Positions 1-53,894 of a DNA stretch of 64,000 nucleotides are shown here, piece after piece. The translations under genes were made by a program, and so were the position numbers. Source of the stretch: Candidatus Uhrbacteria bacterium. Its GTDB lineage: Bacteria; Patescibacteriota; Patescibacteriia; UBA9934; GWF2-40-263. The notes under the pieces are model-generated. The model did not search any database. It was not told where the DNA came from and saw only the letters and a list, made by a program, of their open reading frames with translations. Location of the stretch: contig JACRJU010000013.1 of assembly GCA_016219925.1 (NCBI GenBank), positions 102,566-166,565 on the forward strand, in the 5' to 3' direction. The number at the start of each line of letters is the position of its first letter. Positions within the stretch are counted from its first letter, which is position 1.

Positions 1-440
1 CCGCGCGATTTTATCGTGACGCGGTGGAGGAGTGCGGATTAAAAAAGCTATTGGGTGCATGGGTGCGCGTGCCGGAATTTCAATCCCGCTCAGCCTATTT
101 TTCCGGGTTCAACGATCTGCTCTCAACAACCGACTTGCTGTGGACCAAACCAAGTGAGTTGTCGTTTTACTGCGGGCTTGGGATTGCCATTATTATGGCG
201 CCTCCGATTGGTTCACAGGAAGAATTTAATCGCGTATGGTTGGATTATGTGGGTGGCGGAGTTCCACAAAATGATCCAAAATACACGAGCGAATGGTTAT
301 TCGATTGGATTGACTCCGGTGGAATGGCGCGAATGGCTTGGAACGGATATGTGGAGGCTCCCACACACGGCACCTATCGCATTGAAGACCTCGTTTTAGG
401 AAGAAAAAGCGAGATTCATCCACTCCCTCTTATCGTATGA
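1..440 (+). CDS. hypothetical protein, 5'-partial; frame is open to the window start and the first in-frame start at 24 is GTG
   Basis: ORF 24..440 sits in a frame that stays open back to position 1. Its stop overlaps the next start (ATGA at 437-440), suggesting translational coupling. No recognisable motifs. Confidence 0.35.
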   Translation, partial: ARFYRDAVEECGLKKLLGAWVRVPEFQSRSAYFSGFNDLLSTTDLLWTKPSELSFYCGLGIAIIMAPPIGSQEEFNRVWLDYVGGGVPQNDPKYTSEWLFDWIDSGGMARMAWNGYVEAPTHGTYRIEDLVLGRKSEIHPLPLIV

Positions 441-2017
441 ACACCACTCTTCAACATTTGATCGATACGATCGTGCAGATGCAATCGCCCGAGACCGATG
501 AAGCGCAGGAGGATGTCATCAAAGTTTCCGACACGATTGCCGTCGCCGCTTCGGTTTATGAAACGGTGCGCAATACGCTTGAATACGACGATGAACATTT
601 GTTGCGTCGCAACGCTATTCGGCGAATCCTCAAGCGCCGATTGGGAGAGATCGATTCAAGCAAGCTTGCCTTAAAGTTGTTGCGTGAGCTTATTTGGGCA
701 AAGTATCTGCCCAACAAAACCATCCCGAACCAACAAGCGGACGTCGTCGCAACAGTTTTGGAAAAGTACAAGCGAATGTTTGGAAGTTTGGAAGAAGATA
801 CCAAAGATGGACAAAACGGTTATGCGTGGTTGCTTGATGCGCTTTCAACCGAAATTGAATATCAAGTGGCTCCGCCGTGTGTGGATGAATCCATGGCGAG
901 TTTTGCGTATCAAGCGCTCAAAGAGCGGGTGCAATTTGAGACCGCACTGATCGATCCCAAAGATCAGGATCTGCAACTCTATATTGCGGTTCATCGAGCG
1001 GTTTTGAAGTCCAATCGGGCCACTCTACGATATCGTTTGTTGACGCTTTATTATCCCAAATGGCGAACCGCCAATGCGGGCGATCAGGCCGTGAGCGAAG
1101 TGGCGATGAGTTTGAACACGGTGATGCATTCGATCGACGAGCAGATTACCAACCCGGCAGCGGAGGCGGTTTTCCGTTTTGTCCGCCGGCACAGCATGGT
1201 TTTCCATGTCATTGGCGACATTGCCAAGGATCATCCCGAGGCGTTTGCGTCCGCCGTCGAATCCCGCGATCTCAACACGCTTGACGCGGCGCTCACGGCC
1301 GCGGCAAGCGAACGCTATAAAACCTTTCGTTCGCGCTTGAGCCGAACGGTGGTGCGCGCGGCATTTTTTCTGCTTCTAACCAAGTCCATCTTGGCGTTTT
1401 TAGTTGAGTATCCCTATGAGGTCTTCTTACTTCAGACGACGGATTATCTTCCGCTGGCCGTGAACATTTTGTTCCCACCACTTCTGCTGGCGTTTATTGG
1501 ACTGACCGTGCGCATTCCGAAAAAGAAGAATACCGAGATGGTGCTCGAAGAAGCCCACGCCTTTTTGGAAGTGGGAGAGGAGCAAACGTTTTTATTCAAA
1601 CAACGTCGCCCATGGGGAAGCGGGCCGTTGTTTGCGATTTTCAATTTGCTTTATCTTATCTTTTTCGCTCTGACGGTTGTGGTCATTGCGTGGGGGCTTT
1701 ACGCATTCGGGTTCAATAGTCTTTCCATTTTTTTCTTCCTCTTCTTTCTTTCTCTTGTGGCGTATTTTGGCTTGCGCATTCGCAACACGCGCCGCGAGTA
1801 TCTGGTGATGGATTCATCGGGCGGTTTTTTTGGCATTTTGGGAGATATGATTTTTTTGCCGATCGTTCGCGTTGGCCGATGGATCGCTCTGCGCGCACCA
1901 CGTGTCAACATCTTCCTTTTCTTCTTTGATTTCATTATTGAAGCTCCGTTTAAGGCAACCATTGATGTGATTGAAAGTTGGTTTGCTTTCTTGCGCGAAA
2001 AGCGCGAAGAAATTTAG
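437..2017 (+). CDS. hypothetical protein with a soluble N-terminal domain and a hydrophobic multi-TM C-terminal region
   Basis: 526-aa ORF with an ATG start. The C-terminal about 200 aa are rich in F/L/I stretches consistent with TM helices. No catalytic motif recognised. Confidence 0.5.
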   Translation: MNTTLQHLIDTIVQMQSPETDEAQEDVIKVSDTIAVAASVYETVRNTLEYDDEHLLRRNAIRRILKRRLGEIDSSKLALKLLRELIWAKYLPNKTIPNQQADVVATVLEKYKRMFGSLEEDTKDGQNGYAWLLDALSTEIEYQVAPPCVDESMASFAYQALKERVQFETALIDPKDQDLQLYIAVHRAVLKSNRATLRYRLLTLYYPKWRTANAGDQAVSEVAMSLNTVMHSIDEQITNPAAEAVFRFVRRHSMVFHVIGDIAKDHPEAFASAVESRDLNTLDAALTAAASERYKTFRSRLSRTVVRAAFFLLLTKSILAFLVEYPYEVFLLQTTDYLPLAVNILFPPLLLAFIGLTVRIPKKKNTEMVLEEAHAFLEVGEEQTFLFKQRRPWGSGPLFAIFNLLYLIFFALTVVVIAWGLYAFGFNSLSIFFFLFFLSLVAYFGLRIRNTRREYLVMDSSGGFFGILGDMIFLPIVRVGRWIALRAPRVNIFLFFFDFIIEAPFKATIDVIESWFAFLREKREEI

Positions 2018-8669: not shown

Positions 8670-8756
8670 GGAATCACAAGGATCACGTTTCGTTCGAGCC
8701 CCTTCAGTTGATGTAACCTCCTTCAGGATGACAGGCAAAGATTTCTTCGTACGATC

Positions 8757-8833
8757 GCGATGACGATCTATCCTGCCGGAGGGAACAACGGCGACGAGTC
8801 CGTTGGCCCGGAGGCAGGATAGATCGTCATCGC
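8757..8833 (+). repeat. structured hairpin element copy 2 (perfect 21-bp closing stem, 35-nt conserved core) immediately 3' of nrdJ
   Basis: gcgatgacgatctatcctgcc ... ggcaggatagatcgtcatcgc are perfect reverse complements. The core GGAGGGAACAACGGCGACGAGTCCGTTGGCCCGGAG matches copy 1. Confidence 0.55.
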
Positions 8834-8869
8834 ACTGACAAAACACAACTTTCGTAATTCACAGCTATA

Positions 8870-8898
8870 AAGAGGGCTCATCATGTCCCTCTTTTTTG
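8870..8898 (+). terminator. rho-independent terminator after nrdJ
   Basis: aagaggg-ctcatcatgt-ccctct stem-loop followed by TTTTT. Confidence 0.55.
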
Positions 8899-8925
8899 TT
8901 TTTGTGATAAAATGAGCTCGAACCT

Positions 8926-9426
8926 ATGGTTAACTTTCCGTTTAAGCGTCAAGAGGAAGTTCCGGCACAACCTCCGGAGGTTTTGCATTCTCTCGCACCG
9001 GAGGTTTCTTTGGAGCAGTCCAATGAACAGCCTGGGCAATCCCCTGAACAATCTCTCGATAAAAAACCAGAAGCCACAGAACCAACACGCCCAGCGGATT
9101 TGCCAACCACCACGCCCTTCAGAGCATCTCCGTCCGTCTCTGCTGATCCGATGATAAAGCGCATCGAATCTATTTTGGAAGAAGATATGACGGATTTATA
9201 TTTAAACCTGTCACCGAAGGATCAAGTCGTTTTTAAACAGAAAGGCGAGGAGACCCTGACGAAAATACGTGTGCTCATGCAAAAGACGAAAGTAAATGCG
9301 AAGAAAATTTTTGAGCTCATTCGTGCATGGCTCCGGCTGATCCCGGGCGTCAATCGGTTTTTTTTGGAACAGGAAGCCAAAATTAAGACAGATAAAATTC
9401 TGCTTTCCAAAGATCGCGAATCATGA
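8926..9426 (+). CDS. hypothetical protein, Pro/Glu/Ser-rich low-complexity N-terminus; first gene of a three-gene operon
   Basis: ATG at 8926. Its stop overlaps the next start (ATGA at 9423). No motif recognised. Confidence 0.4.
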   Translation: MVNFPFKRQEEVPAQPPEVLHSLAPEVSLEQSNEQPGQSPEQSLDKKPEATEPTRPADLPTTTPFRASPSVSADPMIKRIESILEEDMTDLYLNLSPKDQVVFKQKGEETLTKIRVLMQKTKVNAKKIFELIRAWLRLIPGVNRFFLEQEAKIKTDKILLSKDRES

Positions 9427-11972
9427 TCACTTCTCTGTTGTACCAAACGGACGTGCAAGAACCACTGATCAATGCCATCAATCTGACGGACTTCTTTTGG
9501 TTGGCGTGGGTCATTTTGGCCGTGGCCGCACTCGTTGGGGGACTTTTTGTTTTGCGAGGGATCTTGCGACGCGTTTTTGAAGCGCGCAATGCGACGTTCA
9601 ATAGCAAGACGCTTTTAATCACCCTTCCGAAATTCCGTCGTGAAGAGGAGAGCGAGCGCGGACCTCAAAAAGAACAGGTGCAAGAAACCATTTCCGCGGC
9701 CGAAGCGATTTTCGCTTCCATTGGCGGACTCAAAGCTGAACGAGGAATTAAAGCGTGGCTGTTGGGACGATCCGATGAGCTGGCATTTGAAATTGTCTCC
9801 GAGCACAAGCTCATCAGATTTTATGTCACGATTCCCAAACACATGCAGAGCTTTGTCGAGCAACAAATTTCTGCGGCCTATCCTGATGCTTTTTTGGAAG
9901 AAGTCGAGGACTTTAATATTTTCACCCCGACAGGCACGATTCTTGGAAGTCACTTGGGTTTTTCACGTCCGAATGCGTTTCCGATCAAAACCTATCGCAA
10001 ACTCGATCAAGATCCGCTCAATTCCATCACGAATGTTCTTTCAAAAATTCCGGACGGCGATGCGGCAGCGTTTCAGTTTGTGGTGCGCTCGTCGTATAAG
10101 AAATGGCGATCGTATGGAGTGGATTTGGCCAAGCGCATGCAACAAGGCGTGAGTTTGGAAGATGCGTTACGCGGGAAGAAAAAGGGAGATAAAGGAACGC
10201 TTGAAAAGTGGGGGATTTCGAGCGGCTCGCAACAGAAAGAGCCAGAGCAGGAGTATCGCTTGTCGCCGCAAGAAGAAGAAATTGTGAAAGGGCTTCAAGA
10301 GAAGGCGAGCAAGGCCGGAATGGATGTCAGTCTTCGGCTGATTTCGTGTTCCCAAAACGCCGCGACCGCAGAGTCGATTTTGCAAAACATGCTCAACGCG
10401 TTTTCGCAGTACAATGTGTACGAATATGGCAACTCGTTTGTGAAGCAAATCCCGCGATCGAAAAAACGTTTGATCTCGCAGTTTATCTATCGAGTTGTTT
10501 CTGAAAAGAACAAAATTGTTATGAACGCTGAGGAGATGGCGAGTCTCTGGCACTTGCCGCTTCCATGGACAGAAACGCCAAACATCAAATGGCTCGGCGC
10601 GCGTTCCGCCGCCGCTCCGGCTTCGATTCCGGGTCCGGACGATGGCGATATTGAGTTGGGATACAACGTGTATCGGGGCATCAAAACACCGGTGTGGATG
10701 AAGGCCAAAGATCGCACCCGCCACATGTACATCATTGGGAAGTCCGGTTCGGGAAAATCTCAAATGATCGCAAACCTTGCCATTCAGGACATTCGCGCAG
10801 GCCATGGTGTTGCTGTGGTCGAGCCGCATGGAGATTTGATTGAGCATATTTTGGGAAACATTCCGCGCGAGCGTATTGATGATGTGGTCGTGTTTAACCC
10901 GTCGGATCTCGAGCGACCTATGGGACTCAATATGCTGGAGTCCAAAGACGAAACAATGAAAGATTTTGCGGTTCAAGAGATGATCGCCATTTTTTATAAA
11001 TTGTTTCCGCCGGAAATGATCGGCCCGATGTTTGAGCACAACATGCGAAACGTGATGCTCACGCTCATGGCGGATCCCAATCAACCCGGAACGATCGCCG
11101 AGATTCCACGCATGTTTTCAGACGAGGCGTTTCAAAAACAGTGGGTGGCCAAAGTGAAAGACCCGGTGGTGCGTTCGTTTTGGGAAAACGAAATGGCCAA
11201 GACGAGCGACTTCCATAAATCGGAGATGTTGGGGTATCTCATCTCAAAGGTTGGACGGTTTGTAGAAAATGAAATGATGAGAAACATCATCGGCCAACAG
11301 CACAATTCGTTTGACTTCCGGGAGATCATGGACAAGAAGAAAATTTTGCTTGTCAATCTGTCCAAAGGAAAAACCGGTGATGTCAACGCGGAGCTTTTGG
11401 GACTCATCATCGTGTCGAAACTTCAGATGGCGGCGCTCACTCGCGCGGACATTCCGGAAGATCAACGCCACGACTTCTATTTGTACATCGACGAGTTCCA
11501 AAACTTCATTACCGATTCGATCGCAACTATTTTGTCAGAGGCGCGCAAGTATCGCTTGAATCTCATCATCGCTCATCAGTATATCGGCCAGCTTGTAAAA
11601 AATAATGATACGAAGATTAAGGAAGCGGTGTTCGGAAACGTTGGAACAACTTTTGTGGCGCGTATCGGTCCCGAAGATGTCGAGACACTCGAGAAGATGT
11701 ATTCGCCAGATTTTTCGGGATATGACCTGATCAACTCGGATAAATTTACGTGGTACGTGAAGATGATCGTCGATAATGCTCAACAAAAGCCGTTTACTCT
11801 CAAGTTCAATACGCCACCTTCAGGAGATCGGGAACTCGCCGAAGGGATCAAAGAACTTTCTCGCCTGAAATTCGGACATGACCGACGATTGGTCGAAGCG
11901 GATATTCTTGAACGCACACAACTTGGAGGCCCAACGCGCATGCAACAACCGCCAGCCATTGGAGAAAAATAA
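9423..11972 (+). CDS. large P-loop ATPase of the VirB4/VirD4 (TraC/TraG-type) type IV secretion / DNA-translocation ATPase superfamily, with N-terminal TM helix
   Basis: 849 aa. TM helix at about residues 23-45. Walker A IIGKSGSGKSQ. Walker B-like YLYIDEFQNF followed by RKYRLNLIIAHQ, matching the RKxG...TQ arrangement of T4SS ATPases. Confidence 0.55.
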   Translation: MITSLLYQTDVQEPLINAINLTDFFWLAWVILAVAALVGGLFVLRGILRRVFEARNATFNSKTLLITLPKFRREEESERGPQKEQVQETISAAEAIFASIGGLKAERGIKAWLLGRSDELAFEIVSEHKLIRFYVTIPKHMQSFVEQQISAAYPDAFLEEVEDFNIFTPTGTILGSHLGFSRPNAFPIKTYRKLDQDPLNSITNVLSKIPDGDAAAFQFVVRSSYKKWRSYGVDLAKRMQQGVSLEDALRGKKKGDKGTLEKWGISSGSQQKEPEQEYRLSPQEEEIVKGLQEKASKAGMDVSLRLISCSQNAATAESILQNMLNAFSQYNVYEYGNSFVKQIPRSKKRLISQFIYRVVSEKNKIVMNAEEMASLWHLPLPWTETPNIKWLGARSAAAPASIPGPDDGDIELGYNVYRGIKTPVWMKAKDRTRHMYIIGKSGSGKSQMIANLAIQDIRAGHGVAVVEPHGDLIEHILGNIPRERIDDVVVFNPSDLERPMGLNMLESKDETMKDFAVQEMIAIFYKLFPPEMIGPMFEHNMRNVMLTLMADPNQPGTIAEIPRMFSDEAFQKQWVAKVKDPVVRSFWENEMAKTSDFHKSEMLGYLISKVGRFVENEMMRNIIGQQHNSFDFREIMDKKKILLVNLSKGKTGDVNAELLGLIIVSKLQMAALTRADIPEDQRHDFYLYIDEFQNFITDSIATILSEARKYRLNLIIAHQYIGQLVKNNDTKIKEAVFGNVGTTFVARIGPEDVETLEKMYSPDFSGYDLINSDKFTWYVKMIVDNAQQKPFTLKFNTPPSGDRELAEGIKELSRLKFGHDRRLVEADILERTQLGGPTRMQQPPAIGEK

Positions 11973-11974
11973 TT

Positions 11975-12601
11975 ATGCCAGACGATCTCGAATATTTTGA
12001 ACAGCCATTTGAATCCGAACCGGATGTCGACGCTCACGCGAATCAGCGGGAATATGCGGACGTCAAAAATCAGCTTGCGGTTCAGATGCTCAAAAAAATG
12101 CGCGACAGTCTCACACATGTGATTCAGTTGCTTGAGGACGGGGATGCGCCGCGTGCCACGCGTCGGCTTGTTGATTTGGTGACACATCAAAAATCGTTTG
12201 AATCGAAATTGCAATCGCAAACAGGCAGTCGGGTCGTTGAAGGGGTTTTTGATGGACTCGCCATGGTTGGAGCGGACGGGGCGCGTTATGACGTATCGGC
12301 GAACTATGCTTCAAAATCTCGGCTCGTCGAAGGGGATATGCTCAAGCTCACCATTCAGCCCGATGGGACGTATGTGTTCAAGCAAATCGGACCGGTCGAA
12401 CGCGAGCGCCTCGTCGGTAAATTGCATCTCGATCCATCCACACAAGAACACGTTGTTCACTGCGGGGATCAGGTGTATAACGTGCTCACCGCTAGTGTGA
12501 CGTATCATAAAGGCATGCCGGGCGATGAGATGGTGATTGTGGTTCCGCGAGGAGGGCAATGCCGATGGGCGGCGGTTGAAAATATCGTGAATACCTCCTA
12601 G
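11975..12601 (+). CDS. hypothetical protein (third gene of the ATPase operon)
   Basis: ATG at 11975, 3 nt after the ATPase stop. 208 aa with no recognisable motif. Confidence 0.45.
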   Translation: MPDDLEYFEQPFESEPDVDAHANQREYADVKNQLAVQMLKKMRDSLTHVIQLLEDGDAPRATRRLVDLVTHQKSFESKLQSQTGSRVVEGVFDGLAMVGADGARYDVSANYASKSRLVEGDMLKLTIQPDGTYVFKQIGPVERERLVGKLHLDPSTQEHVVHCGDQVYNVLTASVTYHKGMPGDEMVIVVPRGGQCRWAAVENIVNTS

Positions 12602-12605: not shown

Positions 12606-14090
12606 ATGGCCCAAGCGCTCTATCGCATCTATCGCCCCGCGACGTTTGCAGACGTGGTTGGGCAGGAACCTGTTGCGACAACCATTCAAAATCAATTTCG
12701 CACCGGTCATCTGGCGCACGCATATGTGTTTACGGGACCGCGCGGCATCGGGAAGACCACCATGGCGCGGCTGGTGGCCAAATTGGCCAACTGCGAACAG
12801 CCAAAAGACGCCGAACCGTGCAATGCTTGTGAGGCGTGCCGGGAAATCGCTTCGGGAACATCGTTGGACGTTTTTGAAATTGATGCCGCGTCCAACACGG
12901 ATGTGGAAAACGTGCGCGAGAATATCATCAAGAGCGTGCGTTTTGCTCCCAATCGGTTGAAGAAAAAAGTTTTCATCATCGACGAGGTGCACATGCTTTC
13001 CACTTCGGCATTCAATGCGCTTTTGAAGACCCTTGAAGAGCCGCCTGAACATGTGCTGTTTGTTTTGGCCACGACGGAAATTCACAAAGTTCCTGAAACG
13101 ATCATCAGTCGCTGTCAGCGGTTTGATTTTCGCCGCATCCTACCTGAAGTTTTGCTTAAACGTTTGCAATACATCGTCAAACAAGAGCACGTCGATGTCG
13201 AGACTGATGTGCTTGAGCAGATCGTCAAACATTCTGGCGGGTGCGCACGCGATGCGGAAAGTTTGCTCGGCCAGGTATTGGCTTTGGGAGACAAAAAAAT
13301 CACCATGCAGGAAGCTAGCCTTGTTCTCCCCGCCAGCAACGAGATGATGGTGAAGCAGTTTTTAGACCTGCTATATCAGAAAAATGCCGCTGGTGCTGTG
13401 AGTGATCTGAACACCTTTCTTGAACAAGGGGTGGACCTGAAAGTTTTTATGGACGATATGCTTGAGGCTTTGCGAGCTCGATTATTCGGTCCAGAATCGG
13501 TGTTTGTCCGAGAAGCGCTCGAGCGGTTTTTGGAAGCTCGAGCTCAAATAAAAACAGATCATCTTCCTCAACTACCGATTGAACTCGCGATTGTGGAGTT
13601 GTGCGACCCTGTTCTGTCATCCCGAGCGACCACGCCTTCGGCGGGAGAACCGAGGGATCTCCCCGAGGATTTTAAATATCAGGGGGTTGATTCTGATTAT
13701 GTCGCCCCTATCATTGAGAGGCCAGCTGAGCGGGCCGAAGCAATCTCCGCAGATTCTACTGTTTTCGACACAATCCCCATTATTTCTCTCGACGAGGTTC
13801 GTAAAAAGTGGCCCCAAGTGTTCGAACAAATTCGGGAATGTAACGCATCGCTTCCGCTGTTTATGCAGACGTGTGAGGTATGCGGAGTGAACGGTGAGCA
13901 TGTTGAGTTGGGTTTTGGTTATGATCTCTACGTCCAAACCGTCAACAAAGATAAGAATCGTCGCGTGATCGAAGAGGCGTTTGAGAGGGTATTGGGCAGG
14001 CCGATGAAAGTCAAAGCGGTTGTAAAAAAGATGGCCGAGGACGAAACCGTTATTCAATTGATCGAACAATTTGGAGGGAGTATAGGATAA
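12606..14090 (+). CDS. dnaX: DNA polymerase III subunit gamma/tau
   Basis: N-terminus YRPATFADVVGQEPV...FTGPRGIGKTTMARLVAK...C.C..C zinc module, then FEIDAAS and the sensor region. A classic DnaX. Confidence 0.85.
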   Translation: MAQALYRIYRPATFADVVGQEPVATTIQNQFRTGHLAHAYVFTGPRGIGKTTMARLVAKLANCEQPKDAEPCNACEACREIASGTSLDVFEIDAASNTDVENVRENIIKSVRFAPNRLKKKVFIIDEVHMLSTSAFNALLKTLEEPPEHVLFVLATTEIHKVPETIISRCQRFDFRRILPEVLLKRLQYIVKQEHVDVETDVLEQIVKHSGGCARDAESLLGQVLALGDKKITMQEASLVLPASNEMMVKQFLDLLYQKNAAGAVSDLNTFLEQGVDLKVFMDDMLEALRARLFGPESVFVREALERFLEARAQIKTDHLPQLPIELAIVELCDPVLSSRATTPSAGEPRDLPEDFKYQGVDSDYVAPIIERPAERAEAISADSTVFDTIPIISLDEVRKKWPQVFEQIRECNASLPLFMQTCEVCGVNGEHVELGFGYDLYVQTVNKDKNRRVIEEAFERVLGRPMKVKAVVKKMAEDETVIQLIEQFGGSIG

Positions 14091-16424: not shown

Positions 16425-16557
16425 TTAACATCCACCAACAGACGGGCGGGTGGCGGCGACCAGGTCCCCTCTTTGCGAGCGATGTGCGAGCCTAAGAGGG
16501 TGGCCGACGACAGGCCCCGCCCAGATGGGTAAAAATTTTGACCGTAAATATCATTTT

Positions 16558-16950
16558 ATGTCCCACTCCCACTCTTCAGCCAACTATCTTTATCTGCTCG
16601 CCGCTTTTATCATTATCGTCCTTCTTGTCGTCGTGGCGTCCCGTGGCGCGAAGCCGTCTCGCTACGACTCCTTCGCCCAGTGTCTGACAGATAATGGCGT
16701 GAAGATGTTTGGCGCGTGGTGGTGTCCGCATTGTGCGAATCAGAAAAAAGAATTTGAAGGCGCTTTTGATAAGATCAATTATACCGAATGTTCCGAACCG
16801 GGCTCGCAGGCGATGAATCAAACTTGTAAAGACGCTGGGATTGAAGGCTATCCGACATGGGAATTTAAAGACGCCTCCCGACTTTCTGGTGAACAGACTC
16901 TTGAGACGCTCGGACAAAAAGCGGACTGTTCTCTGCCGACCAACCCATAG
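16558..16950 (+). CDS. membrane-anchored thioredoxin-fold thiol-disulfide oxidoreductase (DsbA-like, CPHC active site)
   Basis: N-terminal TM anchor, then WCPHC. The ATG at 16558 is preferred over the ORF-track start at 16450, which would translate a GC-rich hairpin region. Confidence 0.6.
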   Translation: MSHSHSSANYLYLLAAFIIIVLLVVVASRGAKPSRYDSFAQCLTDNGVKMFGAWWCPHCANQKKEFEGAFDKINYTECSEPGSQAMNQTCKDAGIEGYPTWEFKDASRLSGEQTLETLGQKADCSLPTNP

Positions 16951-16952
16951 GT

Positions 16953-17405
16953 ATGTCGGCTCGAATTATCCCATGGATTCTTGCGGCGTCTTTGCTCGGA
17001 CTTGCGATTTCTTCGTATTCGTTTTTGCACAACCGCGGTTTCACTTCCGGCTCGTTTTGCACGATCAATGAAACCGTCAATTGCGACGTGGTAAACAAAG
17101 GCGCATACTCAACAGTTGTCGGCATCCCTGTTGCGCTCGTGGGAGTGTTGGGTTACGGCTTTCTGGTTTTAGCCTCCATTCTCAAAGTGCGCGCCCCGCA
17201 CGATCGCCAACTCACACGCGTTTTACTCATCGCGAGCGTTCTCGGACTTGCCTTCAGTCTATACCTCACCTCGCTGGAGGCCTTCGTTCTGCATGCGTGG
17301 TGTCTGCTGTGTGTAAGTTCACAGATTATGATTATTCTTATTGTCATTCTCACAAGCTATCTTACTTATCACGAATCGTATGACCACCGAATTTCTCAAT
17401 CTTGA
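16953..17405 (+). CDS. vitamin K epoxide reductase (VKOR) family protein
   Basis: Four or five TM helices. The loop cysteine pair C..NETVNC and the TM CLLC active site are arranged as in bacterial VKOR homologues. Starts 3 nt after the DsbA-like stop. Confidence 0.65.
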   Translation: MSARIIPWILAASLLGLAISSYSFLHNRGFTSGSFCTINETVNCDVVNKGAYSTVVGIPVALVGVLGYGFLVLASILKVRAPHDRQLTRVLLIASVLGLAFSLYLTSLEAFVLHAWCLLCVSSQIMIILIVILTSYLTYHESYDHRISQS

Positions 17406-29691: not shown

Positions 29692-29734
29692 ACCCGAGGA
29701 GGGTCTGAGAAGTGAGGAGTGTGAAGCCTTGGTT

Positions 29735-31660
29735 CTACAGGTAAGGCTTGAGCAGTTCGACGAGGACGCCGAGGATGGGGATCAGGATGCCGCCGATGAT
29801 GGCCTCGCCAGCGATGAGACCGGCGGCCATTGGCCGAGCGAACAGGCTGAACGCGCCGTCCTTCCCCTTGGAGAACTGCTTCCACGCGGCGCTCGTGACA
29901 CTGCCCAGAGCGATTGCGATCGTCAGCGACGGAGACAGGATCAGAGCGAAGCCGACGGCCGAGGGGATCGGCATCCACCAGAAGCGCATGCGTTCGTTGC
30001 CATCCTCGTCGAGCATGATGACGCCGGACTTGTCGCGCTTGCGCACCGCGAGCAGCATCTCCATGATGATGCCCAGAAGCGCGGCCGCGATCGACGCGGA
30101 GAGGGCGCCATGCGGCAGAGCCGACAGACCCTTCTCCATCACCATCGCGAGCGAAGCGATCTTCAGCGCCGTTGGCGCCGTGAGCTGTCCCGGCTCGAGG
30201 CCGATGTGGTAGGCGTGTTCCAAGGACGTGAAGACCACTGGAAGCAGAAGGCACGCGATCGGGATCATCAGGAGTTGAGCGACGATGAGCGTGCGGAACT
30301 TGCCGCCCAGCCGCCGAGCGACCCAGAACGACGCGATGGTCGACTCCGACGAGGCTTGCGGGTCAGCCGCGATGTGCGCGGCGTTCAGGTTTTGCTGGAT
30401 GCGATCCGGCCAAATCAGGCCGAACAGGAACTGTGTGGCGTTCGCCATGAGCGACACCGGTCCTGTACCGGTGATGCCCAGAACGCGCAGGCCGGCGATG
30501 ATGAGCACCGGCTGAATCGATACGGCGACCAGCACTTCGTACCACGGCATCGAGAACCAGGCGTCCTGCAACCAGACGAGCGCGACGACGCACACGGCGA
30601 TGCCGGTCCAGATCCACCAGCGCGGGATCGTCTCGTCCGCGAGACTCGGCTTGGGCGTCTGTGCAAGGTCCGGGTTGCGCCGGCGCTTGATCCAGTTGCG
30701 GATGAGCGGGATGCCCACGCCCGTGAGCGCGGCGGTGACCATCATGGCCGTAGCGGGCCACATCGTCCATTGAACGACTTCCTTGAAGTGCGAGGGCGTA
30801 GCGAGGTACTTCGCCGCATTCGCGCAGTTGGTCGTGAGAAAGTCGTTCACCGTGGCCTTTCCAATCAGCTCACGGCACTGTTCCCAATGCTCCGGAGCGG
30901 TTCCACTGAGAGCGACGAGCTGTCCGACCGTCTCGCCGTACGTGGAAATCAGCCACACACCGATGAGCCCCGAAAGACCCACGGAGAGCGGGACGAGCAT
31001 GCCCGTACCGAAGCCCGCGAACTCGAGACCGAGAGCAAGGCCCAGGGCGGGCTTGCCGACGAATTCCACGGTGATGTTCAGGCCGGCGCGGATGAAGGTC
31101 ACAGCGGCCGCAACGGCCGTCGTCACCGTCAGGACAGTGCGTCGCTGGGTGGCTCTTTCGGTTGCCGCTGGATCGGTGAGGGTCTCGGCGACGCTCTGCA
31201 CGGCCTTGCCGGTCGGCCAGGGGAGCGAAGGATCGTCGAGAATCATCCGACGCGGCAGAGCGCCGACGAAGACGCCGAGGTTAGCGCTCACGAGCAGCCA
31301 CAGGGAGATCTGCCACCATTCGGGGTTGAACCCGATGGGATGATGGAAGACGTTCTGGATGTAGCAGAACGCCGCGAGGATGACCACCATGAACGACACG
31401 CCCGAGACCACGTTGATCATGGTCTGGACGAGGTTGAGCTGGATGGCCATTCGTCCGTTTGAACGCGCGGCCTGATGGCCGAGCACGGCGGCGGCCAGGA
31501 ACATGCCGCCATAGGTCAGATCGACCCCCAGCCCGAGCTTGAGCGTGAGGTAGGGACCTGCGGCTGTTGCCACGGCGCAGATGAGAGCGCCCATGACGAG
31601 CACCCTCCAGTTGAGGTCTCCGTCACGGAGCTCGGCCTTGAGCCGATCGAGCCAGTTCAT
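29735..31660 (-). CDS. OPT-family oligopeptide transporter
   Basis: 641 aa with about 16 TM helices and OPT-family conserved blocks. About 66% GC. SD GAGGTGA lies 4 nt before the ATG. Confidence 0.75.
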   Translation of the reverse strand: MNWLDRLKAELRDGDLNWRVLVMGALICAVATAAGPYLTLKLGLGVDLTYGGMFLAAAVLGHQAARSNGRMAIQLNLVQTMINVVSGVSFMVVILAAFCYIQNVFHHPIGFNPEWWQISLWLLVSANLGVFVGALPRRMILDDPSLPWPTGKAVQSVAETLTDPAATERATQRRTVLTVTTAVAAAVTFIRAGLNITVEFVGKPALGLALGLEFAGFGTGMLVPLSVGLSGLIGVWLISTYGETVGQLVALSGTAPEHWEQCRELIGKATVNDFLTTNCANAAKYLATPSHFKEVVQWTMWPATAMMVTAALTGVGIPLIRNWIKRRRNPDLAQTPKPSLADETIPRWWIWTGIAVCVVALVWLQDAWFSMPWYEVLVAVSIQPVLIIAGLRVLGITGTGPVSLMANATQFLFGLIWPDRIQQNLNAAHIAADPQASSESTIASFWVARRLGGKFRTLIVAQLLMIPIACLLLPVVFTSLEHAYHIGLEPGQLTAPTALKIASLAMVMEKGLSALPHGALSASIAAALLGIIMEMLLAVRKRDKSGVIMLDEDGNERMRFWWMPIPSAVGFALILSPSLTIAIALGSVTSAAWKQFSKGKDGAFSLFARPMAAGLIAGEAIIGGILIPILGVLVELLKPYL

Positions 31661-32601: not shown

Positions 32602-33705
32602 ATGGCTTTGTTCGGTAAAGCAAAAAAAGGAGGAACGCTTGGCGTTGACATCGGCGCAAACAGCATCAAGCTCGTTGAACTTGGCAGCGAAAGGGGACGC
32701 GCCAAACTGCTCACCTATGGCTATGGAGAGCTGCCATTTGGCAATCAGGGCGGACTTCTCATGGACAATCCCAAAGCCGCGGGCGAATTGCTGGCGGAAA
32801 TTTGTAAAGCCTCGGGATGTCAATCCACCATTACGATGGCCGCGTTGCCGACGTCGAATGTGTTTACAACGATTTTATCGCTTCCCGCTACGAAAGATCC
32901 CAAGCAAGTCAAATCGCTCATTGATGCCGAGGTGGAAAAAATGTCGCCACTTCCGATTTCCGAGATGATTACCTACTCGACGTTTTTAGATGGGGAGGGC
33001 AAGAAGGCGGAGAAATCTCAAAAAGCTGAAAGGGCAGAGAAAGCGGATAAGTATGTGCGCGTGTTGGTCACCGGTGCTGCAAAGACGCTTGTGCAGAAGT
33101 ATATTGAGATATTCCGTACAGCCAAACTACAACTGCAAGCCTTGGATACAGAATCTTTTGCGTTGATTCGTTCTCTCATTGGCAAAGACCGCAGTGCGAT
33201 CATGCTTATTGACATGGGGGCCAAACGGACAAACATCACTGTTGTGGAAAAGGGGATTCCGTTTGTAACGCGCAGTGTGAATATTGGCGGGGATACGCTT
33301 ACGAGCCGCATTCAATCCAGCTTGCATCTCCCCGCGGACAAAGCCGAGCAGATGAAGCGTGATTTTTCCGATGCGGCCGCGGAGCCGTCTGATCTTCCCG
33401 GCGGTTTGTCGCCGGTGCTTGAGCCGGTTATTCAACCGCTGGTGAATGAAATCAAGTATTCCTTTGAACTGTATGCAAGCATGGAATTGACGCAAATCAA
33501 AAAGGTGGAAAAGATTATCTTGACTGGCGGTTCTGCTCACTTGCCTCGCGTGCCAGAATATCTTTCTGAAACCTTGAATTTGAACGTGTATCGCGGCAAT
33601 CCGTGGGCGCGCGTCGTCTATCCGCAGGATTTGTCGATCGTGTTGGAGGAGATCGGGCCGCGCATGAGCGTCGCGATCGGGCTTGCGATGCGAGATATGG
33701 AATAA
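32602..33705 (+). CDS. pilM: type IV pilus assembly protein PilM (actin-like ATPase fold)
   Basis: LGVDIGANSIKLVEL N-terminus, ILTGGSAHLP near the C-terminus, and typical PilM length. Confidence 0.8.
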   Translation: MALFGKAKKGGTLGVDIGANSIKLVELGSERGRAKLLTYGYGELPFGNQGGLLMDNPKAAGELLAEICKASGCQSTITMAALPTSNVFTTILSLPATKDPKQVKSLIDAEVEKMSPLPISEMITYSTFLDGEGKKAEKSQKAERAEKADKYVRVLVTGAAKTLVQKYIEIFRTAKLQLQALDTESFALIRSLIGKDRSAIMLIDMGAKRTNITVVEKGIPFVTRSVNIGGDTLTSRIQSSLHLPADKAEQMKRDFSDAAAEPSDLPGGLSPVLEPVIQPLVNEIKYSFELYASMELTQIKKVEKIILTGGSAHLPRVPEYLSETLNLNVYRGNPWARVVYPQDLSIVLEEIGPRMSVAIGLAMRDME

Positions 33706-33718
33706 CGAAATCCTAAGA

Positions 33719-33965
33719 TCATTTGAACCTGTCCTCTCAAAACACGCGGTCGGCCATCGTTGATTTTAGACTGTCGATTGTACCCGCCGCTCGTGTCTCG
33801 GGATCGCGAAGCCTTATTGCCTGAGCCTGTCGAAGGCAATGGCGATCCCGGAGCGGAGCGAGTGCAGTGAACAAAATTTTGTTTGTTCACTACCGAGCGA
33901 GCGAACGGGATATGACCTTTGGTCATATCCCTACGACACGGTTTTGATCGGACAGGTTCAAATGA
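33719..33965. repeat. 247-bp element bounded by perfect 16-bp inverted repeats (tcatttgaacctgtcc / ggacaggttcaaatga) containing three nested hairpins; MITE-like or structured leader RNA
   Basis: Left inverted repeat 33719-33734, right inverted repeat 33950-33965. Internal hairpins at 33799-33850, 33867-33890 (9-bp perfect stem) and 33907-33931 (11-bp perfect stem). Confidence 0.5.
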
Positions 33966-34011
33966 CTTGATCACTATCTTCTTATTTCCTACTCCTTCTC
34001 CTCTCCCCCCT

Positions 34012-34521
34012 ATGTCCAAATCTTCACGCGGTTTTACTCTTTTGGAAATTTTGGTCGTGATCGCGATCATCGCGCTCATTGGCGTTTTTGCGGCCGTTGC
34101 CGTGAACGCCGCCCGATCCAAACAACGCGATGCCACACGGCTTGCGAACATCCGTCAGTTGCAAAGCGCCCTTGAAGATCACTTCAATGAAGGGAACACG
34201 TATCCCGCGGGCGAACTTCTGCCGCTGGGCGATCCGACAACGAGTGCGTGTCTGGGTCTCAATGGATTCCTCGGAGATTGTTCTTCCGAGAGCGCGGTAT
34301 TTTTGCGCATCGTGCCGGGGACTTATGCTGACGGTCTTAAAGGCGATGTGACCTGCGGTGATCCCGCGCGTAAGGCCTTTTGCTACACCCAACGAGCTGG
34401 AGGAGACAAATACGTGATTCATTTCGAACTGGAAAACGCTCTGCCATCTATCGGTCTTCAAAAGGGGGTGAACTGTGCCATTGCCGATGGGATGCAGGCA
34501 GGGGTGTGTCCAGAAGAATAG
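34012..34521 (+). CDS. type IV pilin (prepilin with N-terminal methylation motif)
   Basis: MSKSSRGFTLLEILVVIAIIALIG has a G-F cleavage site with E at +5. C-terminal cysteine pairs are present. Confidence 0.8.
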   Translation: MSKSSRGFTLLEILVVIAIIALIGVFAAVAVNAARSKQRDATRLANIRQLQSALEDHFNEGNTYPAGELLPLGDPTTSACLGLNGFLGDCSSESAVFLRIVPGTYADGLKGDVTCGDPARKAFCYTQRAGGDKYVIHFELENALPSIGLQKGVNCAIADGMQAGVCPEE

Positions 34522-34526
34522 GGGAT

Positions 34527-34550
34527 AAAACAGGGTGCGAGCCCTGTTTT
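34527..34550 (+). terminator. hairpin terminator after the pilin gene
   Basis: aaaacaggg-tgcgag-ccctgtttt, a 9-bp perfect stem ending in a T-run. Confidence 0.5.
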
Positions 34551-34569
34551 ATGATAGAATAGGGGCGCT

Positions 34570-37328
<2,759 letters not shown>

Positions 37329-40752: not shown

Positions 40753-40881
40753 TTCTGGGCGACTGTGCTTATGCTTGCCATGAGCCAAGCCGGGCCGAAT
40801 CATCTATGCTTGTTGCGTATATGAAAAGGCAATAGCCCACCTCATTTGACCAAGGGCGTTGTACCTTCCGCGGAGCCTGCC

Positions 40882-41895
40882 ATGAGTGAAACTGACGATT
40901 TAGGGGGAGTTTACCACATCACGGATCGTGAGATTCGGGACAGGGAGTTGACCGGAACGATCCGTCCAACAGATCGAGTGGTGATCCCAGCCAAACATGA
41001 AGGAGCGACCATTCAGCGCACGCTGGAGTACCTCCTGCGTCTTGGCTTCCATCCTCGGCAGATTATCGTGCTCGTCAACGGTTCAACGGCCGTCGATGGA
41101 GAACCCGACGACACAGCCGACAAGGCGATGACTGTCGATTCTGATCTGCAGGTTCTCCATCAGAGTGACCTGCTCGACGCCGCGCTCGTCGCACGCCTGA
41201 CGTGCGACTACAAGATCAACGAGAACAGGCTGCACGGCAAGGGAACGGCGATGTTCGCCGCGCTCGTCGCCCTCCACCGGGCCGGAACGTCTCTGGACGC
41301 GCGGATCATCTTTCTGGATGCCGACATCCAGAACAGCTTCGAGGTCGATCCGGTCGGTCGCCTGTTGATCGGCGCCGACTTCTTCCCGCACGAGGTCAAG
41401 CTGGTCAAGCTGGCTTCGCTTGGACGTGACAACGCGGGCATCCACGCGTTCCTCTCCACGCTCGTCGGGGATTACATGAAGATCGGCGCCCTGCGCTGGC
41501 CGCTGTGCGGACAGGTCGTGGTGCGCTGGGAAGACTTGCGTCAGATGCGTCTGGCGGGCGGCTACGCGGTCGAGATGGCCATGATGATGGATCTCGTCGA
41601 GCGTGCGCATTCCCCGGTGGTGTTCGGGGAAGTCGAGATCGGCGCCGTGCTGATCGACAAGCACAACACGGACCGTGTCCACACGCGCATGTACGCGCAG
41701 ATCATGTGGTTCGCCGGTCAGGTGCAAATGATGGGGTACGGATTGGGCCGTCTCACGTCCAATCTGATGGCCCACATCAATGCCCAGGATCCCTTCCAAA
41801 TCTGGGTGCCGGTCAAGGAATCCGGTCTGGGTTCCAACGAGCTGGAGGATCGCTACCCCGATGCGATCTTTCCCTCGATCGCGGAACTCTTCTAG
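40882..41895 (+). CDS. GT-A fold glycosyltransferase, glucosyl-/mannosyl-3-phosphoglycerate synthase-like (GT81-like)
   Basis: RVVIPAKHE...TIQRTL NDP-sugar binding start, the DxD motif in FLDADIQ, and a conserved His-rich C-terminal region. About 64% GC. The ORF-track start at 40846 is TTG; ATG at 40882. Confidence 0.55.
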   Translation: MSETDDLGGVYHITDREIRDRELTGTIRPTDRVVIPAKHEGATIQRTLEYLLRLGFHPRQIIVLVNGSTAVDGEPDDTADKAMTVDSDLQVLHQSDLLDAALVARLTCDYKINENRLHGKGTAMFAALVALHRAGTSLDARIIFLDADIQNSFEVDPVGRLLIGADFFPHEVKLVKLASLGRDNAGIHAFLSTLVGDYMKIGALRWPLCGQVVVRWEDLRQMRLAGGYAVEMAMMMDLVERAHSPVVFGEVEIGAVLIDKHNTDRVHTRMYAQIMWFAGQVQMMGYGLGRLTSNLMAHINAQDPFQIWVPVKESGLGSNELEDRYPDAIFPSIAELF

Positions 41896-43917: not shown

Positions 43918-44559
43918 CTAGGGAGACTCGCGGCGGTGGCAGGCCTTGTCGTAGGCGGAACTGCCGATCAGCACGCGGTTGAGCTTGTCGCTCGAGGTCA
44001 GGTAGAGCTGGAGCGTGTCGTCGTTGACGTGTGGGAGGGGGACGTATTTCCCCCTGTGCGCGGTTGCGAACGCTTGACGCTCTGCCTCGTCTTGAAAGAA
44101 GAAACCGTGACGGCCACGGATTGCGTTTTCGACCTGGACGAAGTCGTCGCACGAGAGCGCGTCGATGGCTTCCTTGGGGATGCGCTCGTTGTCGAATACG
44201 TGTTGGATGGCGACTTCCAGGGCAGTCGGCGTGGCCGAGGCCGGAAGCGGTTGCGCATCGCTTTGGCCAGGAGCGGTGTCCGCGAGCGATCCCGCGTCGG
44301 GTTCTCCGACTCCCAGCGCGTCCGCGGCCATCGCCGCATCTGCGCTGTCCGGCGCGCTGCCTGCATCCGGCTGGCCGATCGAGCTGGTGTCGGTCGCCGC
44401 GGAAGCCGTGGCATCATTGATGTCCGAACCGGCATCGACGATCGAGGCCGCATGGTCCGGTTCTGCGGCGGAGGCCCTCATGATGAGGTGCCAGGGCAGG
44501 ACGAGCACGGCGGCGAAAAGCACCGCCAATGCCGTGCGAGAGAACGTGGATGGGTTCAC
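43918..44559 (-). CDS. secreted Ala/Asp-rich protein with a C-terminal conserved domain (possibly YARHG-like)
   Basis: GTG start at 44559 with SD AGAGGTG 4 nt upstream. Signal peptide MNPSTFSRTALAVLFAAVLVLPWHLIMRASA. A low-complexity A/D/S linker, then a C-terminal FVQVENAIRGRHGFFFQ block. About 66% GC. Confidence 0.5.
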   Translation of the reverse strand: MNPSTFSRTALAVLFAAVLVLPWHLIMRASAAEPDHAASIVDAGSDINDATASAATDTSSIGQPDAGSAPDSADAAMAADALGVGEPDAGSLADTAPGQSDAQPLPASATPTALEVAIQHVFDNERIPKEAIDALSCDDFVQVENAIRGRHGFFFQDEAERQAFATAHRGKYVPLPHVNDDTLQLYLTSSDKLNRVLIGSSAYDKACHRRESP

Positions 44560-44625
44560 GGAGCACCTCTTGATATCTGGACGAGGAATTTCGCCAGGAA
44601 AATAACTTACAGATAGTATGGGGAA

Positions 44626-44935: not shown

Positions 44936-44979
44936 TTCGTTTAATGTAAAAACCGGCCCGTGGGGTCGGTGGTGATGTG

Positions 44980-45783: not shown

Positions 45784-45904
45784 GTCCTACCTCATGACCT
45801 CTATTGAGAGGGTGACCGTCCACCCTAGCTCAAAAATAGGAAATTGTCAACTGATCGTGTTCAGTATTCTTTGCGCTTGGGGGTGAATAAGGTAGGCTGT
45901 GATC

Positions 45905-51190: not shown

Positions 51191-51537
51191 AGGATCTTTA
51201 TTTTAACCTCTTGACAGCCTCTTGCAAGGCCGTTCTAGGGTAGGTATCATAGTTCCACTAAATCATAACGTATTTGCGTATACGTATGTTGCTTCCATAC
51301 AGTTTCGTCATGGACGATGAAGACTGGGGATCTGACGACGACGAGGACAAAGAGGGTATGGGTTCCGACGTCGAAGAGAGTGATGACGCTGATGACGATG
51401 GTGACGACGCCGATGGTGGGGAAGAGTGGTAGATATAAAACAGACCTTTCATAGGTCTGTTTTTCTATTGACGAAAGGAGGTATTTCATGTACGATAGCG
51501 ACGCCGCAACGGGATAAGGCTAAAGACTTTTGGAGGA

Positions 51538-52290: not shown

Positions 52291-52317
52291 CTCCTCCCAG
52301 GGGTCTTTTTTTGACTC

Positions 52318-52346
52318 TTGTCAGAGGGGAGAAGGGTTGTTATAAT
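52318..52346 (+). promoter_or_regulatory. sigma70 promoter TTGTCA-17-TATAAT driving tRNA-Asn
   Basis: TTGTCA 52318-52323, TATAAT 52341-52346. The tRNA begins about 80 nt downstream, after two small leader hairpins. Confidence 0.5.
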
Positions 52347-52427
52347 CCTGGCGGTCCCCTGTCATTGCGAAGGAGGTTCAAGCGATTGAAGCCATTTCCG
52401 CACTGTGGAAATCGTCAGACAATTTAT

Positions 52428-52502: not shown

Positions 52503-52582
52503 AGCAGGTCGGTCAGTCGAAAGACTGGTCGTTTTGTTTTGTATGGTAAACTTATTCTCAAAATGTCTATAGACAAACTGAT

Positions 52583-53859: not shown

Positions 53860-53894
53860 AAAAATCCAGAGCCGGAAGCTCTGGGGAAGAAGGC

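What the first reader, a model, noticed from the sequence alone, without database searches (positions are those of the whole stretch)
8926..12601. Translationally coupled three-gene operon built around an orphan VirB4/VirD4-superfamily ATPase with unusual architecture
A 166-aa P/E/S-rich protein, an 849-aa ATPase and a 208-aa unknown protein are linked by overlapping or abutting stop and start codons (ATGA at 9423; TAA then ATG at 11972/11975). The ATPase has a single N-terminal TM helix and a domain of about 400 aa with no recognisable motifs. Its C-terminal NTPase domain has Walker A GKSGSGKSQ, Walker B YIDEFQNF and an RKYRLNLIIAHQ block, as in type IV secretion and conjugative coupling ATPases. 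No other T4SS components (VirB6/8/9/10, relaxase) are nearby; the neighbours are nrdJ and dnaX. The operon could be a minimal DNA or protein translocation module. In a small genome with type IV pili it might be linked to DNA uptake or to cell-cell interaction. I could not assign the two partner proteins to any family.
Basis: partly seen in the sequence, partly recalled or inferred. Interest (0 to 1): 0.6.

Follow-up and report, generated by a model that had tools for sequence, protein, structure and literature searches.

The report
Chromosomal coupling-ATPase operon of Patescibacteria
A candidate-phyla-radiation bacterium keeps, among its housekeeping genes, a very highly conserved membrane motor borrowed from conjugation machinery, teamed with two lineage-specific partner proteins; what it moves is unknown, but host or environmental nucleic acid is the leading guess.

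The parts
8869..8904 (+). Terminator-like hairpin (8-bp stem 8869-8876/8887-8894) plus T-run closing the upstream nrdJ unit; marks the 5' boundary of the operon
   Evidence: Sequence, inverted repeat I5, RNA fold. Not listed by the consensus scan because the loop is 10 nt.
8926..9426 (+). P1, 166 aa: variable acidic, proline-rich N-terminal tail (res 1-75) plus a conserved, soluble, mildly basic C-terminal domain (res ~76-166; motif IPGVNRFFLEQEAKIKTDKIL). Translationally coupled to the ATPase.
   Evidence: 1,111 homologues, all unnamed; alignment; composition, no TM; 66/73 loci, median spacer 4 nt. No Pfam/NCBIfam/PHROG/PADLOC/PDB match. Helical character is read from the sequence pattern only; no structure model was made.
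9423..11972 (+). 849-aa membrane-anchored ATPase of the T4CP (VirD4) sequence family
9495..9566 (+). Single TM helix (res ~25-48). N-terminal 24 aa are acidic and the following segment is rich in Arg/Lys, so N-out/C-in is inferred.
   Evidence: KD19 2.5; sequence; positive-inside rule (inference)
9597..10700 (+). N-terminal domain (res 59-426) with the fold of the VirB4/TrwK N-terminal domain; precomputed Pfam PF26449.1
10701..11822 (+). C-terminal motor domain (res ~427-800): Walker A 10737-10760, Walker B 11478-11498. Matches TrwB_AAD_bind, T4SS-DNA_transf and TraG-D_C.
   Evidence: median 66% identity across 33 loci vs 49% for the DnaX AAA+ core
11975..12601 (+). P3, 208 aa: conserved N-terminal F-E-x-E-P-D motif, helical hairpin (res 18-83), two OB-like beta-barrels (86-139, 143-204) of cold-shock/S1 type
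12606..14090 (+). dnaX (DNA polymerase III tau/gamma), 4 nt after P3; the most constant downstream neighbour of the cluster
   Evidence: DNA_pol3_delta2, DNAX_ATPase_lid, DnaX_C; 50/56; 45/49

Best explanation
This is a vertically inherited chromosomal operon of Patescibacteria (Uhrbacteria and related lineages). Its core is a membrane-anchored ATPase of the type IV secretion coupling-protein (VirD4/T4CP) sequence family, presumably hexameric. Between a single TM helix and the motor it carries a VirB4-type N-terminal domain. Its ancestors, still seen on Gram-positive plasmids and in Bacillus phages, work beside a separate VirB4 and, on the plasmids, next to a relaxase-like protein. In Patescibacteria the relaxase partner is gone. 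Instead there are two lineage-specific soluble partners: P1, translationally coupled upstream, and P3, a coiled-coil hairpin with two cold-shock/S1-like OB folds. Proposed mechanism (inferred): the VirB4-like NTD and the TM helix dock the motor at the cytoplasmic face of the T4SS-like channel that most Patescibacteria encode elsewhere. P3 binds single-stranded nucleic acid and hands it to, or receives it from, the motor. P1 acts as an NTD-bound adaptor or regulator. ATP hydrolysis then threads the polymer through the membrane complex. Direction is undetermined; import of host or environmental DNA/RNA would fit the nucleotide auxotrophy of these bacteria. Shown here: gene structure, family assignment, folds, synteny and strength of conservation. 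Inferred: oligomeric state, substrate, partners' roles and the link to the T4SS.
For: T4CP Pfam families pass their gathering thresholds (41.5, 35.4 and 29.8 bits), and TrwB is the best PDB sequence hit. The NTD has the VirB4 NTD fold, which in R388 docks VirB4 to VirB3/VirB8 at the membrane (established knowledge; Mace et al. 2022 structures 7o3v-7o43). Full-length homologues lie next to a bona fide VirB4 in an Embleya plasmid and phage G, and in the ConQ/T4CP slot of an ICEBs1/Tcp-like operon on a B. subtilis plasmid that has its own VirB4-like ORF; on both plasmids a Replic_Relax protein follows directly. P3's OB barrels match RNA/ssDNA-binding CSD/S1 domains and carry invariant aromatic and basic residues. 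P1-ATPase coupling is conserved (median spacer 4 nt, 52/67 at <=20 nt). Synteny is 66/73, 52/68 and, seeded from P3, 46/54. The motor is more conserved than DnaX in 94% of loci. Walker motifs are invariant. VirB4-based T4SS is present in 2,417/3,035 Patescibacteria genomes and usually lacks a nearby T4CP and relaxase (PMC12102498). CedD, an archaeal ATPase with a TM helix, a VirB4-NTD-like domain and a HerA/VirB4-type motor, is required for DNA import (PMC11868833). Host RNA uptake by a cultured Patescibacterium has no known mechanism (preprint 10.64898/2026.06.21.733656).
Confidence: 0.4

Rival explanations
1. A T4SS-independent housekeeping DNA motor. The exapted T4CP-type translocase works with the replisome or chromosome (for example membrane-tethered DNA pumping, segregation or repair, by analogy with FtsK/SpoIIIE or HerA). 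P3 would be an OB-fold DNA-binding accessory co-expressed with the clamp-loader subunit DnaX.
For: dnaX is the most constant neighbour (50/56; 45/49 from P3 seeds). Where P3 is missing, dnaX follows the ATPase directly (10 loci; of the 12 P3-less pairs measured, median spacer 9.5 nt). In the window the four genes are packed with 4-nt spacers or less. Conservation is at housekeeping level, above DnaX. T4CP homologues are more widespread than VirB4, and the authors themselves raise exaptation (PMC12102498). T4CPs are structurally related to FtsK (established knowledge).
Against: The FtsK_SpoIIIE and HerA profiles score far below threshold. There is no gamma or KOPS-reading domain. cysS and corA are also recurrent neighbours, so the dnaX adjacency may be inherited gene order. 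Outside the close relatives the ATPase-P3 and P3-dnaX spacers are loose (medians ~129 and ~183 nt). A VirB4-type NTD is a T4SS-docking module in every known case.
Confidence: 0.2
2. A protein-substrate coupling complex. The ATPase would be the receptor of the patescibacterial T4SS for effector proteins injected into host bacteria, with P1 and P3 acting as adaptor or chaperone subunits, as IcmS/IcmW/DotM/DotN do on DotL.
For: The best profile-to-PDB sequence hit is DotL/IcmO (E 1.6e-4). P1 has an acidic disordered tail and P3 a conserved acidic N-terminal peptide, reminiscent of acidic signals read by type IVB coupling complexes (established knowledge). Relaxases are absent from most Patescibacteria (PMC12102498).
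Against: The DotL match covers only the P-loop region (res 422-482). OB folds of CSD/S1 type are typical nucleic-acid binders. No effector-like genes are linked.
Confidence: 0.12
3. A competence-type DNA uptake motor. The ATPase would pull DNA through ComEC downstream of type IV pili, with P3 as the incoming-strand binder.
For: Type IV pilus genes are in the window (PilM, prepilin, PilD at 32.6-35.3 kb). Patescibacteria commonly encode ComEC (PMC12102498). P3 has an OB fold.
Against: There is no genetic linkage to pilus or com genes in 80 loci. No known ComEC system uses a T4CP- or VirB4-type motor (own knowledge). comEC is dispensable in S. epibionticum.
Confidence: 0.1
4. A remnant or cargo of an integrated conjugative element, with no cellular role.
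For: The nearest non-Patescibacteria relatives are on plasmids and phages.
Against: It sits among housekeeping genes with normal composition. It is syntenic across lineages down to 45% identity. It is under stronger constraint than DnaX. No integrase, relaxase or other transfer gene is nearby.
Confidence: 0.02

Closest known systems
VirD4-type type IV coupling proteins (TrwB of R388, TraD, PcfC, ConQ)
   Same: The motor domain matches PF10412, PF02534 and PF12696 above threshold. It has an N-terminal membrane anchor, invariant Walker A/B motifs, and TrwB as best PDB sequence hit.
   Different: It has one TM helix rather than the usual two. A ~370-aa VirB4-like domain is inserted between the TM helix and the motor. 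There is no relaxase, Dtr or T4SS gene nearby. It is chromosomal, vertically inherited and sits next to dnaX. It scores far below every NCBIfam T4CP equivalog cutoff (best 50.6 bits vs 250).
Full-length homologues on Gram-positive mobile elements (B. subtilis plasmid NZ_CP154922 'DUF87 domain-containing protein', Embleya plasmid T4CP-family protein, Bacillus phage G gp156, SPO1-like phage proteins; PHROG 5156)
   Same: Same two-domain architecture over ~700 residues (21-29% identity; PHROG 5156 E 2.4e-84 over res 115-831; BLASTP 1e-71 to Embleya).
   Different: These sit inside transfer operons beside a separate VirB4 and, on the two plasmids, directly upstream of a Replic_Relax protein. They have no P1 or P3 neighbours and no dnaX link.
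VirB4 (TrwK of R388)
   Different: No VirB4-specific sequence profile matches above noise. There is no BLASTP link to bona fide VirB4s at E<=1e-3. It coexists with a separate VirB4 in mobile elements. It has its own TM helix. No VirB3, VirB6 or VirB8 gene is adjacent.
CedD/CedB DNA-import ATPases of the crenarchaeal Ced system
   Same: TM helix, VirB4-NTD-like domain and HerA/VirB4-type ATPase; chromosomal, not on a conjugative element; CedD is needed for DNA import (PMC11868833). There is a weak NCBIfam CedD match (E 2.4e-10).
   Different: The match is 39.7 bits against a cutoff of 600 and covers only the P-loop region. The Ced ATPases belong to the HerA/VirB4 side, whereas this motor scores as VirD4. 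The partners are different (CedA/A1/A2/E versus P1/P3).
FtsK/SpoIIIE DNA translocases
   Same: Same ATPase superfamily; a membrane-anchored motor in a chromosomal, replication-adjacent context.
   Different: FtsK_SpoIIIE scores 13.4 bits against a cutoff of 24. There is no gamma domain and no multi-TM N-terminal domain.

Membership tests
VirD4-type T4CP (PF02534 / PF10412 / PF12696) | Nucleotide-binding domain matching the family profiles above the curated thresholds, with Walker A and B motifs | tested here: met
   41.5, 35.4 and 29.8 bits against cutoffs of 20.5, 20.1 and 22; motifs invariant in 39 sequences
VirD4-type T4CP (PF02534 / PF10412 / PF12696) | N-terminal transmembrane anchor | tested here: met
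   One TM helix at res ~25-48; canonical T4CPs usually have two (own knowledge)
VirD4-type T4CP (PF02534 / PF10412 / PF12696) | All-alpha domain inserted in the nucleotide-binding domain | tested here: inconclusive
   The TrwB_AAD_bind match spans profile positions 10-313 of 387, and the TrwB alignment runs through the AAD region with low-confidence columns. No structure model of the motor was made.
VirD4-type T4CP (PF02534 / PF10412 / PF12696) | Encoded with a relaxase/Dtr module or T4SS genes, coupling a relaxosome to the channel | tested here: not met
   None in the 64-kb window and none recurrent in the flanks of 80 loci. It is met by the plasmid homologues.
VirD4-type T4CP (PF02534 / PF10412 / PF12696) | Hexameric, DNA-stimulated ATPase | not testable with these tools
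   Needs biochemistry or multimer modelling
VirB4 | VirB4-type N-terminal domain fold | tested here: met
VirB4 | Motor matching VirB4-specific sequence profiles (CagE_TrbE_VirB, AAA_10, TIGR00929, CD1110) | tested here: not met
   No such Pfam hit at E<=1. Only a partial NF045975 match (31 bits vs 590) and TraC-F at E 0.0097. No BLASTP link to Embleya or phage G VirB4.
VirB4 | Adjacent VirB3, VirB6 or VirB8-type genes | tested here: not met
CedD (NF053655) | Score at the curated equivalog cutoff | tested here: not met
   39.7 bits against 600, covering res 396-476 only
CedD (NF053655) | Architecture of a TM helix, a VirB4-NTD-like domain and an FtsK/HerA-superfamily ATPase | tested here: met
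   Searches compared with the description in PMC11868833
FtsK/SpoIIIE | PF01580 match above threshold | tested here: not met
   13.4 bits against 24
Pfam PF26449 (N-terminal domain family; name not available to me) | Profile match | tested here: met
   A precomputed PF26449.1 hit is listed for the identical NCBI protein and for all 120 listed homologues. The family is absent from the local Pfam copy.
Cold-shock/S1-like OB-fold nucleic-acid-binding domains (P3) | Five-stranded beta-barrel with b1-b2-b3-alpha-b4-b5 topology | tested here: met
Cold-shock/S1-like OB-fold nucleic-acid-binding domains (P3) | Sequence membership in S1/CSD profiles; binding of ss nucleic acid | tested here: not met
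   No Pfam, NCBIfam or PDB sequence hit. Binding itself is not testable here.

The most novel reading that the evidence does not exclude
The P1-ATPase-P3 module is the missing cytoplasmic motor and receptor by which Patescibacteria pull host nucleic acid (RNA or DNA) in through their T4SS-like apparatus. On this reading a conjugative coupling protein was turned round into an import engine, its relaxase was replaced by a tandem cold-shock/S1-type OB protein, and it became a core, replication-linked gene of the phylum.
Probability: 0.15. Interest if true: 0.85.

Novelty: new variant of a known kind. Interest (0 to 1): 0.58.

Why it matters
Patescibacteria make up a large share of bacterial diversity, cannot make nucleotides, and depend on hosts. 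Their T4SS is essential in the one system tested, yet its substrate and energising partners are unknown, and the route of the recently reported host RNA uptake is unresolved. This cluster is a concrete, testable candidate:

- The motor is under stronger constraint than DnaX.
- It carries a VirB4-type docking domain.
- It is paired with a protein of the single-stranded-nucleic-acid-binding fold class.

It also shows that one branch of coupling proteins, spanning Gram-positive plasmids, Bacillus phages and Patescibacteria, has a VirB4-like N-terminal domain. That bears on how VirB4 and VirD4 diverged. If the function instead proves to be replication-linked, it would be a new example of conjugation machinery domesticated for chromosome biology.

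Tried and rejected
- Pfam, NCBIfam, PHROGs, PADLOC and PDB sequence-profile searches on P1 and P3 gave nothing usable.
- Defence-system reading: only weak PADLOC hits to mad8/HerA P-loops. Rejected, given the housekeeping synteny.
- Domain-fusion (Rosetta-stone) clues from six 1,100-2,000-aa members of the N-domain family: the extra regions have no Pfam domains.
- P1/P3 HMMs against the phage and plasmid loci: no hits.
- The listing of cluster members on ten distant N-domain proteins gave almost no names or taxonomy.
- Rfam on the whole window found only three tRNAs, so the large hairpin upstream of P1 is not a known RNA family.
- The consensus promoter/terminator scan found no more sites than shuffled sequence.
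- The nrdJ link was rejected as functional: nrdJ is upstream in only 3 of 80 loci.
- The mobile-element remnant idea was rejected (see rivals).
Full report
**Observation.** The junctions are an ATGA overlap at 9423-9426 and TAA-TT-ATG at 11970-11977. One thing was missed: the P3 stop (12599-12601) is followed after 4 nt by the ATG of a 494-aa gene that is dnaX by Pfam (DNA_pol3_delta2, DNAX_ATPase_lid, DnaX_C). Locally, then, the unit has four genes. Upstream lies a class II ribonucleotide reductase, closed by an 8-bp stem plus T-run at 8869-8904. The identical proteins are in NCBI from a Candidatus Uhrbacteria bacterium MAG on a 282-kb contig (tags HZA85_02960 and HZA85_02970 for P1 and P3). 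There the ATPase is named [quoted passage not shown].

**The ATPase.** Residues ~427-758 pass the Pfam gathering thresholds of three coupling-protein families: TrwB_AAD_bind at 41.5 bits, T4SS-DNA_transf at 35.4 and TraG-D_C at 29.8. The best solved relative by sequence is TrwB. No NCBIfam equivalog cutoff is approached; the best is the CD1115 VirD4-like family at 50.6 bits against 250. FtsK_SpoIIIE and HerA profiles are far below threshold. There is one strong TM helix at residues ~25-48. The acidic N-terminus and the Arg/Lys-rich segment after the helix imply an N-out/C-in topology (inference). Walker A, Walker B and the RKYRL..AHQ block are invariant or nearly invariant in 39 homologues whose mean column identity is 71%.

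**Relatives outside Patescibacteria.** PHROG 5156 matches residues 115-831 (E 2.4e-84). tblastn finds full-length relatives at 20-29% identity in Bacillus phage G, SPO1-like phages and phage D6E. It also finds them on small Bacillus plasmids, on Streptomyces and Embleya replicons and in Herpetosiphon.
- On a 27-kb B. subtilis plasmid the homologue heads an ICEBs1/Tcp-like operon: homologue, Replic_Relax, TcpC, TcpE, an 855-aa VirB4-like ORF spanning the record origin, a CD3337/EF1877 membrane protein and a CwlT-like hydrolase.
- On the Embleya plasmid the order is PrgI family, XF1762 family protein, VirB4 (CD1110 family, E 5e-79), homologue, Replic_Relax, NlpC/P60.
- In phage G, gp155 is a VirB4 (E 3e-51) and gp156 is the homologue.

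In mobile elements, then, this family coexists with a separate VirB4 and occupies the coupling-protein slot. On the plasmids that slot lies directly upstream of the relaxase-like gene. BLASTP does not link it to the VirB4s. P1 and P3 HMMs find nothing in these loci.

**The partners.** P1 has 1,111 homologues and P3 has 3,193, all unnamed.
- P1 combines a variable acidic, proline-rich tail (residues 1-75) with a conserved, soluble, slightly basic domain of about 90 aa ending in IPGVNRFFLEQEAKIKTDKIL.
- P3 models well (pLDDT 84.6). It is a helical hairpin (residues 18-83) followed by two five-stranded barrels with b1-b2-b3-alpha-b4-b5 topology.
- P3 is net acidic, but its invariant positions include F92, Y111, K114, K124, K136, R143, R145 and W198, and it has a conserved N-terminal F-E-x-E-P-D motif.

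**Synteny.** A scan of one genome per species returned 80 loci at 45-83% ATPase identity from Uhr-, Falkow-, Magasanik-, Kerfeld-, Doudna- and Buchananbacteria.

| Test | Result |
|---|---|
| P1 directly upstream of the ATPase | 66/73 evaluable loci |
| P3 within 1.5 kb downstream | 52/68 |
| dnaX downstream, same strand | 50/56 |
| Loci lacking P3 where dnaX follows the ATPase at once | 10 of 14 |
| P3-seeded scan: ATPase upstream | 46/54 |
| P3-seeded scan: dnaX downstream | 45/49 |

In the P3-seeded scan, eight loci have P3 without a detectable ATPase upstream; in five of them dnaX is downstream. Unbiased clustering of all flanking ORFs recovers only P1 (60 loci), dnaX (57), P3 (54), cysS (46) and corA (23) as recurrent families, and no T4SS gene. 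P1-to-ATPase spacing is tight everywhere (median 4 nt; 52/67 at <=20 nt). ATPase-to-P3 and P3-to-dnaX spacers are looser outside the close relatives (medians ~129 and ~183 nt, with approximate start calls). Across 33 loci that hold all the genes, the motor domain is 66% identical to the window's, against 49% for the DnaX AAA+ core, and is higher in 94% of loci. The P3 OB region is 56% identical. The window itself is ordinary core chromosome: LepA, RecJ, LigA, DnaG, GatA, RpoD-like sigma factor, RNase J-like protein, P-type ATPase and type IV pilus genes. It has no T4SS or relaxase family.

**Literature.** Quinonero-Coronel et al. 2025 (PMC12102498) found 5,713 VirD4-type T4CP homologues in 2,918 of 3,035 Patescibacteria genomes, only 148 of them near virB4. 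VirB4 was present in 2,417 genomes and relaxases in 103. They noted that the T4CP homologue of S. epibionticum is non-essential, and that exaptation "cannot be ruled out". So the orphan T4CP is already a published observation. I found nothing on the VirB4-like NTD of this branch, on P1 or P3, or on the dnaX synteny. CedD of the crenarchaeal Ced system has the same TM, VirB4-NTD-like and ATPase layout and is required for DNA import (PMC11868833). A 2026 preprint reports uptake of host RNA by a cultivated Patescibacterium, possibly through T4SS-like tubes, with the mechanism unresolved.

**Interpretation.**
- Shown: a real, strongly constrained, vertically inherited operon; a T4CP-family motor with a VirB4-type NTD; a tandem OB-fold partner; and Patescibacteria-specific partners in the position the relaxase-like gene occupies next to the plasmid homologues.
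- Inferred (0.4): the motor docks, through its TM helix and NTD, at the T4SS-like channel encoded elsewhere. With P3 as the single-stranded nucleic-acid adaptor and P1 as an NTD-bound accessory, it threads nucleic acid across the membrane. Direction is unknown.
- Main rival (0.2): a T4SS-independent, replication-linked DNA motor, suggested by the dnaX link and by T4CP homologues being more widespread than VirB4.
- Further rivals: protein-effector coupling (0.12) and a ComEC-type uptake motor (0.1).
- A mobile-element remnant is effectively excluded.

**Verdict.** The feature is a new variant of a known kind: a domesticated coupling-protein module with new partners and an undescribed architecture. 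It is of moderate to high interest because it offers a testable candidate for how these bacteria move nucleic acids.

Noticed in passing
window 8757-8833: Perfect 21-bp inverted repeat (8757-8777 / 8813-8833) with an inner stem, in the nrdJ-P1 spacer. The RNA fold of 8735-8925 gives -78.9 kcal/mol, z = -7.2. It is unique in the window, absent from all 165 fetched loci, and has no Rfam match. Function unknown (transcript-stabilising hairpin, protein-binding site or regulatory element?).
   Followed up: partly
window 32602-35328: Type IV pilus gene cluster: PilM (32602-33705), a prepilin with an N-methylation motif (33919-34521) and prepilin peptidase A24 (34570-35328), immediately upstream of ligA.
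   Followed up: partly
window 29729-31660: An island of 62% G+C against a ~50% background, with long overlapping ORFs on both strands (577 aa on +, 641 aa on -). The + strand ORF has no Pfam hit. A second high-GC stretch at 20-24 kb covers the acetyl-CoA synthetase-like gene.
   Followed up: no
L001, L003, L006, L016-L020 and many other loci (CAY*/CAZ* accessions): Many species-representative MAG records titled 'uncultured Gammaproteobacteria bacterium' carry the Patescibacteria-type P1-ATPase-P3-dnaX cluster at 46-83% identity. The record titles look taxonomically wrong.
   Followed up: no
L124, L126, L127, L134, L145, L147, L152, L159: P3 with no detectable ATPase within 1.5-5 kb upstream; dnaX is downstream in five of these loci. 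In those lineages the P3-dnaX pair persists without the motor next to it.
   Followed up: partly
L001-L080 flanks (e.g. L021:6186-6734, L013:9257-9520, L003:3902-5281, L010:4240-5178): Recurrent insertions and neighbours in relatives: a small methyltransferase gene between the ATPase and P3 (10 loci), a SWIB-domain gene on the opposite strand downstream of the ATPase, before dnaX (9 loci), cysS upstream (46 loci) and corA (23 loci).
   Followed up: partly
L084 (Bacillus phage G 89194-93336) and L081 (phage SP8): Jumbo phage G encodes an adjacent VirB4 (gp155) and coupling-protein homologue (gp156). SPO1-like lytic phages also carry the homologue. The role of T4SS-type ATPases in lytic phages is unexplained.
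   Followed up: partly
window 16450-17405: A 166-aa membrane-anchored protein containing a CxxC motif (no Pfam hit) lies directly upstream of a VKOR-family protein, which suggests a disulfide-bond formation pair.
   Followed up: no
window 437-2017, 40846-41895, 43936-44616, 44977-45807, 51426-52715, 53777-54889: Six further sizeable ORFs with no Pfam family at E<=1e-5; not examined.
   Followed up: no
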